Origin: Octopus vulgaris
Taxonomy: Eukaryota
Length of the DNA: 64,000 nt
Reading direction: 5' to 3'
Assembly (NCBI GenBank): GCA_951406725.2
Contig: OX597818.1
Coordinates: forward strand, 62,496,001-62,560,000
The notes beneath the pieces are model-generated. The model was not told the DNA's origin. It ran no database searches and saw nothing but the letters and a program-made list of their open reading frames with translations. Shown in pieces: positions 2,242 to 35,809 of the stretch. The position numbers were made by a program, and so were the translations under genes. Positions within the stretch are counted from its first letter, which is position 1. Every line of letters starts with the position of its first letter.

Positions 2242-2490
2242 TGATAATAATAATAATAATGATGATGATAATAATAATAATGATGATAATAATTATATAT
2301 ATAAAAAATATACCTTAGTAAATAGAACCCAGGGTTGGGTTCAAAATTCCACCAGGACACCTGATGAAGGCTGGTGAGTAAACTAGTCGAAACGTTGGTA
2401 GCTCGTCTTTGAAACACCCATAAATGTAGTTAATATGTGTATAAAATGTACTCTTAGACATATTTACACCTGCTAGTAATTTTCTGGATA
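2113..2490 (+). mobile_element. SINE family E: tRNA-like head, (TAA/TGA)n middle, hammerhead-like tail
   Basis: A-box-like tagcctaaggg and B-box-like gagttcaattcc, an internal microsatellite, then ctgatga-a-stem-gaaacgtt. Homologous to 62341-62619 (-). Confidence 0.75.
2356..2400 (+). ncRNA. Minimal hammerhead ribozyme motif (stem I degenerate in this copy)
   Basis: CTGATGA 2361-2367; stem II ggctggt/actagtc with loop gagtaa; GAAA 2389-2392; palindromic ACGT stem III. The 3' strand of stem I does not pair here. Confidence 0.55.
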
Positions 2491-5680: not shown

Positions 5681-6809
5681 GTAAGGAGTTTATTTTTATT
5701 ATTAAAAGACGTCCGACTCTCTCAACCTCCAATTTTGTACTGATCTGCAGCAACATGTGCCTCGAGTCCAGTAGTTATCAAGATGCAGGATTTGCAGAGC
5801 ATCACCTGTGCTTAGATGGACAGATAAAGATCTGGAGAATCTCTTCGGCTCTCGGTGCGTGATTAATATTCTTCGGGATGTAGTTCTGCAACATGCAATT
5901 TAGCTTAAAGCTGGGACCATGTCAGGTGCATCAGAAGAGACCTGGGAACAATAGTGCTGAAGAGCTGGTTCTACATTTTTGAATACACTGGAACTCCCGA
6001 ACCAGGACCCCATTTCCGGATGCAGTTTAAAGTCCTACACATGACTTAGTATGTATATTACAAAGTCTCCCCCGCCCATATATTTGAGGGCAGTTTTAGA
6101 GATTTTGTTTTTGGAGGGACGTTTCAAATATTTTCCTTTTCTCAAAATTTCTCATGAGGTACCTGGGTCTATTTCTGTTAATTGAAAAAATAATAAGAAA
6201 ACTCACACGTTAATGAACATTCAAGCAGACTCGTTTTATAAGACATTACCCTTATAATTCATTAGAGAAATCCATTCTGGTTCTTGTAGGGAAACCATGT
6301 TTATATCCTGGGCTTTCTTCTTCTCCTTCTCCAGTCTCGTAACGTTCCCAAATTTTATGGCTTGCAACCACTCCAGTGATGGAACCATTAAAAGATAAAC
6401 CTGCACGAGTATGTGGTATGTGTTTGCTTAAGTGCACATTTTTGATTATGCTTATGTAAGCATATCACTCTGTGTGCGTATGTGTGTGTGTGTGTGGGTG
6501 GGTGGGCGGCTAGTTCAATTATGCATATCTATACAATGTGTTTGCGCTTTCACCAATATTTTCCTAATATCCATTGCTTTCTATTTTCAGCAGTTTTCTA
6601 AAAATGCTTATTCCTTCTGGAAGAAATGTATATTGGTTTCGTGTTATCTCATTCATTGTATATTCACTGGAACTCACAGCTTAATTATATTAGCTATCAT
6701 TACAATCTGCTGGTGATATTTTCTTCCTGCATCTGTCCCTTTCCAATAAAACTTTAAGGTATAATCACCAACTGTTTCTCGATCACACTTGGTCTTCTCA
6801 TAATCATTA

Positions 6810-6851
<42 letters not shown>

Positions 6852-7290
6852 TCCAGCCTATTCTTCCAGTTTAATGCTTCACAGCTTTCATTTATACTAG
6901 TTGTAAAATTAATTACCGCTTGCTGCATGCGTAAAATGATTTACGTTTGCTAATAAGGTAGGTGAATGGTATAGTATAATTTCCATAGCAGTCTATAGTT
7001 CTCTACATTCTCGAATTATATTACCCAATTAGAATGAAGGGTTTTGAATCAGTTTCTCCGTTGTTCTGTTTTAGAAAAGAAAACGCACGTTAATGAGGAC
7101 GATGAGTATACCTACGAACTGCATCATTGGTTAAGAAACGAATGCAATGAAATACCATGTGAAGCAATCGAAATCACATCTAAATCAGACCAGTCCGGAA
7201 GCTTAGAAAGACTGCGCATATGTTATGGAGAAGGGAAATAACTTCACACTGAATTCTTTGGTTGTTGTAGTATACGATGACGTCTTGTAA

Positions 7291-7326
<36 letters not shown>

Positions 7327-7708
7327 AGGAGGTGCAATGGCCCAGTGGTTAGGGCAGCGGACTCGCGGTCATAGGATCGCGGTTTCGATTCCCAGAACGG
7401 GTGTTGTGAGTATTTATTGAGCGAAAACACCTAAAGCTCCACGAGGCTCCGGCAGGGGATGGTGGTGATCTCTGCTGTACTCTTTCACCACAACTTTCTC
7501 TTACTCTTACTTCCTGTTTCTGTTGTACCTGTATTTCAAAGGGCCGGCCTTGTCACTCTCTGTGTCACGCTGAATATCCCCGAGAACTACGTTAAGGGTA
7601 CACGTGTCTGTGGAGTGGTCAGCCACTTACACGTTAATTTCACGAGCAGGCTGTTCCGTTGATTCGGATCAACCGGAACCCTCGTCATCGTAACCGACGG
7701 AGTGCTTC
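7327..7708 (+). mobile_element. SINE family C (tRNA-Arg-like head; resembles octopus OR-type SINEs)
   Basis: tggcccagtggttagggcagcggactcgcggtc..ggtttcgattccc head; second copy at 12958-13343 (-). Confidence 0.85.
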
Positions 7709-7996
7709 CATCCATATATATGCGTGTGTGTGTGTGTGTGTTTGAGTGATTGACAGAGAGAGCGTGCTTGCATGTCTCTCTATGTGTGTGTGCATGGTGC
7801 AAAAATTATAAATAACATGAAGATGAGTTTAAAAAATTGAGTGTGTCTGGTTTCCGCCCAGGAAAACTAGAAAGGAGTCTTTTACGTTTCGCACATATAC
7901 ACTCTTCTGTAGAAAGAATAGCCAAAGTGAGAGAAAAGAAGACGCACACACACACACACACACACACAAACAAACAACCAAACCTATATATTATAC

Positions 7997-8424
7997 TCTC
8001 TTTTACTCTTTTACTCTTTTACTTGTTTCAGTCATTTGACTGCGGCCATACTGGAGCACTGCCTTTAGTCGAGCAAATCGACTCCGGGACTTATTCTTTG
8101 TAAGCCCAGTACTTATTCTATCGGTCTCTTTTTCCGAACCGCTAAGTGACGGGGACGTAAACACACCAGCATCGGTTGTCAAGCAATGCTAGGGAGACAA
8201 ACATACACACACAAAGACACACACATACACACACATATATATATATATTCATACAAATATACGACAGGCTTCTTTCAGTTTCCGTCTACCAAATCCACTC
8301 ACAAGGCATTGGTCGGCCCGGGGCTATAGCAGAAGACACATCCCCATGATGCCACGCAGTGGGACTGAACCCGGAACCATGTGGTTGGTTAGCAGGCTAC
8401 TTACCACACAGCCACTCCTGCGCC
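7997..8424 (-). mobile_element. SINE family B, full length (tRNA head, CORE-like segment, internal CA/TA repeat)
   Basis: The minus strand begins aggcgcaggagtggctgtgtggtaag..ggttcagtccc and ends (agtaaaag)n. Near-identical to 49405-49821 and 55056-55428. Confidence 0.9.
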
Positions 8425-9016
8425 TATATTATATTATATATATTCGTTTAAGTGCGACGGAGATAAATCATGGCCTCGTATCATAGAGCCATTAGACTGC
8501 TATATCGTGAAAGTCTTTTCTTGAAGCCTGTGCTGTGTAGTGTTGACAGACTTCTATGAACTGTAGACAGATTCAAAGTCGATACTTAGTAGCTCTCTCT
8601 GTTCTCGAGTTATGTTGATCGTTTTAGGTATGTCATATGATTCAGAAGGAGAAGTGTCGTGTTCATCTCTTTTTTTTTACTGAAGTTGGCGTGATAAAAT
8701 GGTACCTGGTTCGGTGGCAAATTTTACAATGAGCAGAGAATATATTTTCTTGATACAGTAGTGAAGCTGCGTGGCTTAGTGGTTAGGGCGTTGTGTTCCC
8801 GATCGAGAGATCATTGTATCGATTTCTGTTACGGGTGGTGGGTTTGTGGTTCTGAGCAAAGCACTTCATTTCAAATGATTTCCAGACGACTCAGCCTTAA
8901 AATGCGTAACTCTGCGACGGATCGGCATCTCATTCTCGGGGAACGTTGTGGTGTCATTGATTTATACGCCATGGAAAGCGAGTTGTTACATGTGAATCAC
9001 TGCATGTAACGCGTAA

Positions 9017-32166: not shown

Positions 32167-32433
32167 TAAATCACTATTTTTAGTGTGTGAGTACTTTAAA
32201 GTATACAGTAGCACTCGATTACAATCTAACTTCATCGTTAAAAGCTGGAGTTTAAATATTTAATGCAGTGGATGGAGTCATTAACATTCGAATTAGAAAT
32301 AAGAAGCGGCGAATTGGTGCAATCGTTAGAGGCTCATAATGTGTGTTACGTACTTGTTACGTTCTTAGTTCGAATCCAGTTGAAGTCATTCACATCTTTC
32401 ACCATTTATGGATCAATAAAAGGCGGTGAAGTG

Positions 32434-32880
32434 AGGCAGCGAGCTGGCAGAAACGTTAGCACGTCGGGCGAAATGTATAGCCATATTTCGTCTGCCGTTA
32501 CGTTCTGAGTTCAAATTCCGCCGAGGTCGACTTTGCCTTTCATCATTTCGGGGTCGATTAAATAAGTACCATTTACGCACTGGGGGTCGATATAATCGAC
32601 TTCATCCGTTTATCTGTCCTTGTTTGTCCCCTCTGTGTTTAGCTCCTTGTGAGTAGTAAAGAAATAGGTATTTCGTCTGCCGTTATGTTCTGACTTCAAA
32701 TTCTGCCGAGGTCGACTTTGCCTTTCATCCTTTCGGGGTCGATAAATTAAGTACCAGTTACGCACTGGGGTCGATGTAATCGACTTAATCCGTTTGTCTG
32801 TCCTTGTTTGTCTCCTCTGTGTTTAGCCACATGTGAGTAATAAAGAAATAGGTATTTCGTCTGCCGTTATGTTCTGCCCA
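32434..32880 (+). mobile_element. SINE family A multimer
   Basis: Junctions gaaatag|gtatttc at 32667/8 and 32851/2. Confidence 0.9.
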
Positions 32881-32959
32881 GTTACGCACCAGTTACGCTC
32901 CTAAATATAGTATAATATGGAAAGTTAACAAAGAAAAGTCGTCAAAAATATGCGTTTCG

Positions 32960-33147
32960 ACTCTAGGCACAAGGCCGGAAATTTTGGGGGAGGAGACAGT
33001 CGATTAGATCGACCCCAATACGCAACTGGTACTTTATTTATCGACTCCGAAAGGATGAAATACAATGTCGACTTTGGCGGAATTTGAGGTCAGAACGTAA
33101 CGGCAGACGACTAAGCATTTCGCCCTGCTTGCTACCGTTTCTGCCAC
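32960..33147 (-). mobile_element. SINE family A (tail type 2)
   Basis: ctctaggcacaaggccggaaattttgg..tttctgcca. Confidence 0.85.
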
Positions 33148-33459: not shown

Positions 33460-33523
<64 letters not shown>

Positions 33524-33541
33524 CTCTCTCTCTCTCTCTCT

Positions 33542-33593
<52 letters not shown>

Positions 33594-33621
33594 CATATAC
33601 ATACATACACACACACACACA

Positions 33622-33723
<102 letters not shown>

Positions 33724-33980
33724 TTTAACAATTAAGGATAACCTCTTAATAAGGGATCTTAACAAGAAATTATCGGGTAGTTAGCGTGAAAACCTCATAA
33801 AAGAAAAGAATTCGAAAATAATTTTTTTCTTTTGAACAAATTAATTATATCTATATTGTATAGAGGGCATTATTACACATAAATGCCTCACACTAAGAGG
33901 GACAAAGTCATTACTACCAAAATTATACTAATCATACCTAAATGCAGTTTTACAAAGCAAGACATTTAAAAAATGAATTT

Positions 33981-34038
33981 AGTTCTGTATCACCGTGATT
34001 TCACATTCAACTTACGTCTTATGATCCTCAGCAGAACT
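33981..34038 (-). ncRNA. Type I hammerhead ribozyme fold (mirror copy)
   Basis: Exact reverse complement of 34043-34100. Confidence 0.75.
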
Positions 34039-34042
34039 AATC

Positions 34043-34100
34043 AGTTCTGCTGAGGATCATAAGACGTAAGTTGAATGTGAAATCACGGTGATACAGAACT
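34043..34100 (+). ncRNA. Type I hammerhead ribozyme fold
   Basis: Stem I agttctg/cagaact; CTGAGGA 34050-34056; stem II cat..gac-GTAA-gtt..atg; GAAA 34079-34082; stem III tcacggtga; cleavage triplet ATA (after 34093). Confidence 0.75.
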
Positions 34101-34374
34101 AAATTCATTTTTTAAATGTCTTGCTTTGAAAAACTGCATTTAAGTATGATTAGTATAATTTTGGTAGTAATGACTTTGTCCCTCTTAGTGTGAGGCATTT
34201 ATGTGTAATAATGCCCTCTATACAATATATATATATATATATATATGAAATATTTGTAAATGGAATTGGGTTTTACCCTCTAAAGCTTAACTATATTAAT
34301 AGAATCTGTACATTTTAGCCAGACCTGGTGAAAATAGCATTAAAATCGTTTTCAAACACACCCTGTTGTCCCAG

Positions 34375-35382: not shown

Positions 35383-35601
35383 TCTCTTTATTGCCCACAA
35401 GCGGCTAAACATAGAGGGGACAATCAAAAGTATTAAGTCGATTACATCGACGCCAGTGCATAACTGGTACTGAATTTATCGACCCCGAAAGGATGAAAGG
35501 CAAAGTTGACCTCGGTGGAATTTGAACTCAGAACGTAACGGCAGACGAAATATGGCTACGCATTTCGTCCGGCATGCTAACGTTTCTGCCAGCTCGCCGC
35601 C
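35383..35601 (-). mobile_element. SINE family A
   Basis: Colinear with 29616-29846. Confidence 0.85.
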
Positions 35602-35809
35602 TTGTTTCATAAAAGTATGCTTCAAATTTAGGTACAAGAAGGATTCGAAGAGAAGAGGATTAAGAGATTACGTTGATTGCCGCCAATACGTCACATGTTG
35701 TTTACCTTATCGACACCAAAGAAGGAAAAGTGAACTTGGACATGCCGGCGTTTGAACTCAAGAAATAGAAATCCTGGAAAAATAACACAATGCATATTTA
35801 CTGTGGCAA

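What the first reader, a model, noticed from the sequence alone, without database searches (positions are those of the whole stretch)
33852..34229. Palindrome with two back-to-back hammerhead ribozymes at its axis
Seen: 187-bp near-identical inverted arms separated by aatc. Starting at the axis, each strand reads agttctg-CTGAGGA-tcataagac GTAA gttgaatgt-GAAA-tcacggtga-TA-cagaact. That is a 7-bp stem I, an intact core, a stem II capped by a GNRA loop and a short near-palindromic stem III. Known: Penelope-like element pLTRs carry type I HHRs with short palindromic stem III that can work as dimers, and PLEs often leave inverted pLTR copies. Inference: this is a young non-autonomous ribozyme element fused head-to-head exactly at the 5' edge of stem I, so a transcript from either strand contains one HHR plus its own antisense. 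Caveats: the base of stem II is U-U rather than G-C, and the long hairpin would compete with the HHR fold.
Basis: partly seen in the sequence, partly recalled or inferred. Interest (0 to 1): 0.85.

Follow-up and report, generated by a model that had tools for sequence, protein, structure and literature searches.

The report
Head-to-head insertion of a hammerhead retrozyme
The palindrome is one copy of a young 480-base repeat that carries a predicted self-cutting RNA; its two-armed copies end at two different fixed sites, which likely reflects two DNA copies started at once by a Penelope-like retrotransposon enzyme, so the back-to-back ribozymes are likely a by-product of insertion, not a device.

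Summary
The inverted arms and both hammerhead (HHR) motifs are real. The element is larger and asymmetric: 33719-34038 (-) plus 34039-34229 (+), inside (TA)n. It belongs to a young, ORF-less 480-nt tandem family (54 exact HHR-core matches; 1,451 matches to a looser motif, control 0). Stems I and II covary. Of 137 non-redundant loci, 69 are simple head-to-head insertions: 62 pair one end at site A (unit nt ~185) with one at site B (~320), none is A+A or B+B, and 7 have one end elsewhere. Junctions are spread along the unit, so fusion at stem I is not conserved, but 21 of 62 are mirror-symmetric (1.4 expected). An autonomous Penelope-like element (PLE) in this genome shows the same anatomy (10 of 10 pairs). 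Best reading: a PLE-mobilised retrozyme inserted by two-ended target-primed reverse transcription. The inverted copy plus 'tail' is known for PLEs; the ~133-nt tail and the counts are new. In a read-through transcript the HHR fold is predicted to be lost. Cleavage is untested, the mobilising PLE was not identified, and this junction was not confirmed in reads.

The parts
33719..34038 (-). Long arm: unit nt 1-320, outer end at site B
   Evidence: BLAST to a natural unit, 99%; end abuts (TA)n
33719..33851 (-). 'Tail': ~133 nt between end site A and end site B, present on this arm only
   Evidence: same pattern in 62 of 69 two-armed loci
34039..34229 (+). Short arm: last 4 nt of the unit plus unit nt 1-187, outer end at site A (exact end ambiguous over 34225-34229 because of TA homology)
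34039..34042 (.). Head-to-head junction (both arms stop within ~4 nt of the same unit position)
   Evidence: not shown bridged in the runs laid
34043..34100 (+). Type I hammerhead motif, predicted cut after 34093; U.U at stem II base; near-palindromic stem III
   Evidence: sequence; covariation across 29 variants
33981..34038 (-). Identical hammerhead motif on the minus strand, predicted cut after 33988
   Evidence: sequence
33460..33718 (.). Left target: compound microsatellite ending in (TA)n
   Evidence: 199 of 202 outer A/B ends in the sample abut (TA)>=4
34230..34247 (.). Right target: (TA)n run

Best explanation
This is one head-to-head insertion of a 480-nt, ORF-less, hammerhead-bearing tandem repeat (a retrozyme), likely made by a Penelope-like RT/GIY-YIG enzyme acting in trans that primed two cDNAs from the two cut strands of a (TA)n target, one at site A and one at site B. 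Shown: unit length, tandem arrays, (TA)n target, strict A+B pairing of outer ends, variable junction, both arms of one insertion from the same sequence variant. Inferred: the enzyme is a PLE dimer; each protomer starts at a different site; both copy the same RNA, which is multimeric or circular; when both cDNAs stop at the same template position (here just 5' of stem I) and are joined, a palindrome results. The hammerhead is likely maintained for processing array transcripts, as a dimer through stem III. In this copy a read-through RNA is predicted to fold as one long hairpin with no hammerhead.
For: Unit 480-481 nt, arrays of up to ~7 units, longest stop-free frame 70 aa. 62 of 69 simple divergent loci are A+B, 0 A+A, 0 B+B; in the subset chosen by a site-A-proximal motif, which could show both homotypic classes, 25 of 27. 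In 18 of 62 the shorter arm is not contained in the longer, which fold-back of a single cDNA cannot give. Junction symmetric within 3 nt in 21 of 62; permutation mean 1.4, maximum 7 in 10,000. Arms within a locus differ by 0.88%, between loci by 3.23% (43 of 62 loci with >=60 shared positions). 199 of 202 outer ends abut (TA)n. A very young autonomous PLE (RT plus GIY-YIG) has the same target and two end sites 34 nt apart, with one of each in 10 of 10 inverted pairs where both ends were seen. PMC11167929: purified PLE protein cuts and extends both strands of AT-rich DNA, starts at two internal sites that define the tail, and is predicted to be a dimer. Stem I 5 of 7 and stem II 6 of 10 pairs show two-sided changes. 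Stem I pairing probability ~0 in the whole palindrome.
Against: No autonomous PLE with a homologous terminal repeat in 68 PLE loci or beside the family copies, so the partner is unidentified. The tail is ~133 nt against 30-40 nt in print. For the 44 of 62 pairs where the short arm lies within the long one, this copy included, fold-back is not excluded. Arm 5' ends are not enriched at the predicted cut (4 of 709 passages, like neighbouring regions), so there is no genomic sign of cleavage in vivo beyond single cases such as L168. The G10.1-C11.1 pair is missing (16 of 29 variants unpaired), the monomer fold has probability 0.004, and Rfam gives no hammerhead hit. Transcription rests on runs only guessed to be RNA.
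Confidence: 0.7

Rival explanations
1. Same element and enzyme, but this palindrome came from one cDNA (or an antisense template) that folded back, self-primed, and was resolved at the second site.
For: PMC3846280 (passages) reads palindromes at PLE inverted junctions as self-priming. 21 of 62 junctions are symmetric and many carry short palindromes. In this copy the short arm lies within the long arm.
Against: 18 of 62 pairs cannot arise so. Fold-back does not by itself explain why the second end always takes the other site type.
Confidence: 0.2
2. A DNA-level inverted duplication of an older single copy (fold-back break repair), unrelated to retrotransposition.
For: (TA)n runs are break-prone (general knowledge); the arms are 99% alike.
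Against: No flanking unique DNA is duplicated; the short arm ends exactly at the family's site A, as in dozens of other loci.
Confidence: 0.04
3. The palindrome is an assembly fold-back artefact.
For: This junction was not shown bridged by any listed contig (2,763 pieces were not shown).
Against: The arms differ at 2 of 182 positions, have different lengths and different flanks, and end at the family's two sites. Short-read DNA contigs hold mirror-symmetric joints of other copies, e.g. 33974/34107 and 33922/34159.
Confidence: 0.03
4. A selected ribozyme/antisense device: two hammerheads placed back to back so that each transcript carries its own switch.
For: Both motifs are intact and meet within 4 nt of stem I.
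Against: The junction is not conserved among copies, the copy is as young as its relatives, and the predicted fold abolishes the hammerhead.
Confidence: 0.03

Closest known systems
Metazoan non-LTR retrozymes (Cervera & de la Pena 2020, PMC7229834, passages; Li et al. 2026, bioRxiv 10.64898/2026.07.22.740005, parts 1-3 of 5)
   Same: ORF-less tandem unit of a few hundred nt, low GC (33%), one type I HHR per unit, found as monomers, dimers and arrays.
   Different: 480-nt unit, above the ~300 bp typical size given in the first paper but inside the 51-972 range of the second. Half of the sampled loci are head-to-head with two fixed end sites ('inverted' occurs 0 times in the first paper, once in the second). 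No parental PLE terminal repeat found. Circular RNA and cleavage not tested.
Endonuclease-bearing Penelope-like elements: inverted 5'-truncated copy and one-sided tail (PMC3846280 and PMC8557442, passages; PMC11167929, parts 1-2 of 4)
   Same: Head-to-head inverted copy, palindromic junctions, tail on one end only, partial tandems, AT-rich/(TA)n target, two RT start sites.
   Different: No ORF; tail ~133 nt instead of 30-40 nt; longer stems I and III than the minimal HHRs of the autonomous PLEs sampled here.
PLE hammerheads with palindromic helix III (Cervera & de la Pena 2014, PMC4209133, parts 1-2 of 4)
   Same: Type I topology, long helix II, self-complementary helix III suited to dimers; pairs of HHRs on opposite strands 100-700 bp apart already reported in Schistosoma.
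   Different: No G10.1-C11.1 pair in this subfamily (U.U); 7-bp stem I and 4-5-bp stem III.

Membership tests
Type I hammerhead ribozyme | Core CUGANGA, GAAA, UH | tested here: met
   Sequence; intact in 149 of 161 copies found without imposing the core, variation mostly at N7
Type I hammerhead ribozyme | Three stems supported by covariation | tested here: met
   Stems I and II: 11 pairs with two-sided changes, slid controls 1-5. Stem III was fixed by the search pattern for 21 of 29 rows and is invariant, so it adds no covariation; shuffles ignore relatedness
Type I hammerhead ribozyme | G10.1-C11.1 pair closing stem II | tested here: not met
   U.U here; G-C in 10, A-U in 3, unpaired in 16 of 29 variants
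Type I hammerhead ribozyme | Match to an Rfam hammerhead model | tested here: not met
   No hammerhead family at E<=10
Type I hammerhead ribozyme | Self-cleavage | not testable with these tools
   No enrichment of copy 5' ends at the cut site is indirect only
Non-LTR retrozyme | Tandem repeats with an HHR in each unit | tested here: met
   Arrays such as L168, L146, L147, L179
Non-LTR retrozyme | No protein-coding capacity | tested here: met
   Longest stop-free frame 70 aa across four tandem units
Non-LTR retrozyme | Expressed as monomeric linear and circular RNA | tested here: inconclusive
   11 guessed-RNA runs hold 67-87% of the words; one 503-nt contig runs once round the unit; contigs cannot tell circle from tandem transcript or DNA
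Penelope-like element (autonomous) | ORF with RT and GIY-YIG endonuclease | tested here: not met
   None in the unit or the window
PLE-mobilised non-autonomous element | Inverted 5'-truncated copy with tail on one end only | tested here: met
   62 of 69
PLE-mobilised non-autonomous element | Homology to the terminal repeat of an autonomous PLE | tested here: inconclusive
   None in 68 PLE loci; these are a small sample of thousands of candidates

The most novel reading that the evidence does not exclude
One RNA molecule is copied by both halves of a PLE enzyme dimer, each locked to its own start site 133 nt apart, so that both cDNAs often run to the same end and are joined into a palindrome; the template can be a ribozyme-made circle read round up to seven times. 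This would explain PLE inverted repeats, the one-sided tail and retrozyme arrays by one mechanism, replacing the self-priming model, and the 480-nt RNA would be a minimal substrate to show it.
Probability: 0.3. Interest if true: 0.7.

Novelty: new member of a known kind. Interest (0 to 1): 0.38.

Why it matters
The palindrome itself is an expected product of PLE-type insertion. The value lies in the family. It gives direct structural evidence that an animal retrozyme is mobilised by PLE machinery, which the papers read infer from HHR type, co-occurrence and sequence similarity. It also gives counts that bear on an open question, how PLE inverted structures form: strict heterotypic ends, excess symmetric junctions, and 18 of 62 cases that fold-back cannot explain. 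A 480-nt RNA with two mapped start sites, in a genome with intact young PLE ORFs, makes the two-primer model testable in vitro. If transcribed through, such copies would give ~190-bp perfect dsRNA (inference).

Tried and rejected
Rfam scans found only microsatellite- and hairpin-driven miRNA-type matches below threshold. A loose HHR pattern in the window was not above chance. PLE ORFs near family copies (L033, L027, L068, L081, L042, L255) are separate insertions, not parents. Two abundant autonomous PLE families have different minimal HHRs and no DNA homology to the unit; a short likeness between site A and one PLE end was seen by eye and not tested. Enrichment of 5' ends at the HHR cut: not found; at the stem I edge: weak, inconclusive. 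Circle versus multimer template: units within an array share a haplotype, but shared private variants (L146) and a partial 4-unit period (L168) fit later local duplication as well; undecided. A tiny second arm was found in 5 of 25 single-arm A copies and 0 of 25 B copies, so two-ended priming is not shown for single-arm copies. Literature searches found no description of this family or counts of end pairing; the library lacks most subscription papers, and supplements and Repbase were not seen. The host taxon was not established; 'octopus' and 'cephalopod' were search guesses from recalled genome features.

Full report
OBSERVATION. The inverted repeat is as described: arms 33846-34038 and 34043-34235, 98% complementary, 4-nt spacer, with two true differences inside the 187 shared bases. 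Each strand carries a type I hammerhead motif that starts at the axis; predicted cuts are after 34093 (+) and 33988 (-). The stem II base is U.U. A loose core pattern is not above chance in this window (10 found, 13 expected), and Rfam has no hammerhead match at E<=10, so the case for a ribozyme had to come from relatives.

THE FAMILY. The arm matches many places in the 2.8-Gb genome at 97-100% (51 matches from 40 scored of 1,560 candidates). It is part of a 480-481-nt unit found in tandem arrays, 33% GC, with no stop-free frame above 70 aa. I number the unit from the first base of stem I (u1). Counts: 54 exact matches to a 37-nt HHR stretch, 265 to a 15-mer near u290, 1,554 to a 21-mer near u170 with one mismatch, and 1,451 to a loose core-plus-stem-III pattern, reversed control 0. 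The window's element is larger than reported: the minus arm runs u1-320 (33719-34038), the plus arm u478-481 plus u1-187 (34039-34229). The spacer is family sequence.

IS IT A HAMMERHEAD? In 161 complete copies from 86 loci, found without imposing the core, the core is intact in 149 and the free position N7 takes all four bases. In 29 distinct variants, 5 of 7 stem I pairs and 6 of 10 stem II pairs show two-sided changes; 91% of cells pair against 21-42% in slid controls. Limits: the core and stem III were fixed by the search pattern for 21 of these rows, and the shuffle control ignores relatedness. Against: the pair at the stem II base is G-C in 10, A-U in 3 and unpaired in 16 variants, whereas PMC4209133 calls G10.1-C11.1 highly conserved. 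The monomer fold has probability 0.004; stem III is unstable as a hairpin (+0.8 kcal/mol) and stable as a self-duplex (-11.9), which fits a dimer. In the full palindrome stem I pairing is ~0 on both strands. Activity is untested; in bioRxiv 10.64898/2026.07.22.740005, 8 of 9 frog retrozyme dimers did not cleave.

INSERTION ANATOMY. I held 149 family loci and dropped 12 overlapping ones. Of 137, 69 are simple head-to-head pairs, 52 single arms and 16 complex. Outer ends fall at two sites, A (~u183-187) and B (~u319-320), and 199 of 202 abut (TA)n. Of the 69 pairs, 62 are A+B, none A+A, none B+B, and 7 have one end elsewhere. The subset chosen by a site-A-proximal motif, able to show either homotypic class, gave 25 A+B of 27. 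Junctions are spread along the unit, so fusion at stem I is not a family property. In 78 loci not chosen by the HHR region, arm ends occur at 5.4 per 1,000 passages at the stem I edge, 5.6 at the cut site, 5.4-6.9 over u54-125 and 2.2-3.2 in the flanks: a weak excess at most, and no sign of cleavage-defined ends, although the array L168 does start at the cut site. Junctions are symmetric within 3 nt in 21 of 62 pairs (permutation mean 1.4, maximum 7 of 10,000). In 18 of 62 the shorter arm is not contained in the longer. Arms of one locus differ by 0.88%, arms of different loci by 3.23% (43 of 62 loci with enough overlap), and rare variants are shared across arms and array units. In 40 of 137 loci an aligned stretch exceeds 520 nt.

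THE LIKELY ENZYME. The genome holds very young autonomous PLEs: a family with a 784-aa stop-to-stop RT/GIY-YIG frame in 4.4-kb tandems (Pfam GIY-YIG at E 3.5e-4, just under its cut-off; the RT assignment rests on motifs I recognised from recall) and a second with a 781-aa frame, 67% identical. The first inserts in (TA)n, ends at two sites 34 nt apart, and has one of each in 10 of 10 inverted pairs where both ends were seen (one pair was misclassed and resolved). Neither shares DNA homology with the unit; a profile search of 68 PLE loci found only separate neighbouring insertions. The partner is therefore inferred from anatomy, not identified.

MECHANISM. Shown in print (PMC11167929, parts 1-2 of 4 read): a purified PLE protein cuts and extends both strands of AT-rich DNA, starts at two internal RNA sites whose interval is the tail, does not need HHR cleavage in vitro, and is predicted to be a dimer. 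Inferred here: two cDNAs, one from A and one from B, are made on the same RNA variant and joined at their ends. Symmetric stops give palindromes such as this one; independent stops give the asymmetric majority. Arms longer than one unit need a multimeric or circular template, and I could not tell which. The published alternative, self-priming (PMC3846280, passages), remains possible for this copy but cannot cover the 18 non-nested pairs.

ARTEFACT AND EXPRESSION. Unequal arms, two substitutions, different flanks and ends at the family's two sites argue against an assembly fold-back. Short-read DNA contigs from one of two laid DNA-sized runs list mirror-symmetric joints of other copies, and the second shows one more in table 5c. 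This junction itself was not among the listed bridged joints. Eleven runs guessed to be RNA hold 67-87% of the unit's words, and one of the two laid has a 503-nt contig that goes once round the unit; this is weak evidence of transcription.

COMPARISON. It works like a PLE insertion and meets the sequence criteria of a non-LTR retrozyme; it is not an autonomous PLE. Opposite-strand HHR pairs (PMC4209133, parts 1-2 of 4), inverted copies with a one-sided tail (PMC8557442 and PMC3846280, passages) and the retrozyme-PLE link (PMC7229834, passages; bioRxiv 2026, parts 1-3 of 5) are in print. My searches found no account of this family, of a ~133-nt tail, or of counted end pairing; supplements and Repbase were not seen and could hold it. 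An earlier unchecked note of this scan on another genome reached a similar reading; it is not independent support.

VERDICT. Real, and explained by a known kind of element; the back-to-back arrangement is most likely incidental. New member of a known kind, interest 0.38, for the family-level evidence on how PLE inverted structures arise.

Noticed in passing
L031:2157-7442, L032:1619-6918, L186:961-6252 and 6753-8449, L187:1752-3445, L227 (unit nt 416-444): LINEs (APE-RT for L031) sit in the same ~30-nt spot of the retrozyme unit. Of the 30 best 3' ends of one LINE family fetched, 4 (one is the query) are followed by the unit; L186 and L187 share the same junction positions on different contigs. 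Either site-specific LINEs or cargo carried by the retrozyme.
   Followed up: partly
L121 (1373-9901, minus strand); L254, L259, L277: Two very young autonomous PLE families (784- and 781-aa stop-to-stop frames) with minimal HHR-like motifs of the U3-A8 type and two end sites 34-37 nt apart; many identical copies. Candidates for protein work.
   Followed up: partly
L214:1267-1685: A retrozyme copy joined at its 5' end directly to the 3' UTR of an older PLE with no TA run between: nested insertion or a template switch between the two RNAs.
   Followed up: no
window 2361-2396 (+): A second, minimal hammerhead-like motif with a palindromic stem III region; single exact copy in the genome, perhaps a PLE remnant.
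   Followed up: partly
L168:1131-4761: A ~7.5-unit array that begins at the predicted cut site and shows a partial 4-unit period in small variants.
   Followed up: partly
L188-L217: Many related subfamilies (tandem spacings ~420-500 nt) keep the HHR and apparently the same two end sites at 75-90% identity; several have the G-C pair at the stem II base.
   Followed up: partly
window 32356-33146 and 35436-35609: Short interspersed repeats in direct and inverted orientation (80-93% alike), SINE-like by eye.
   Followed up: no
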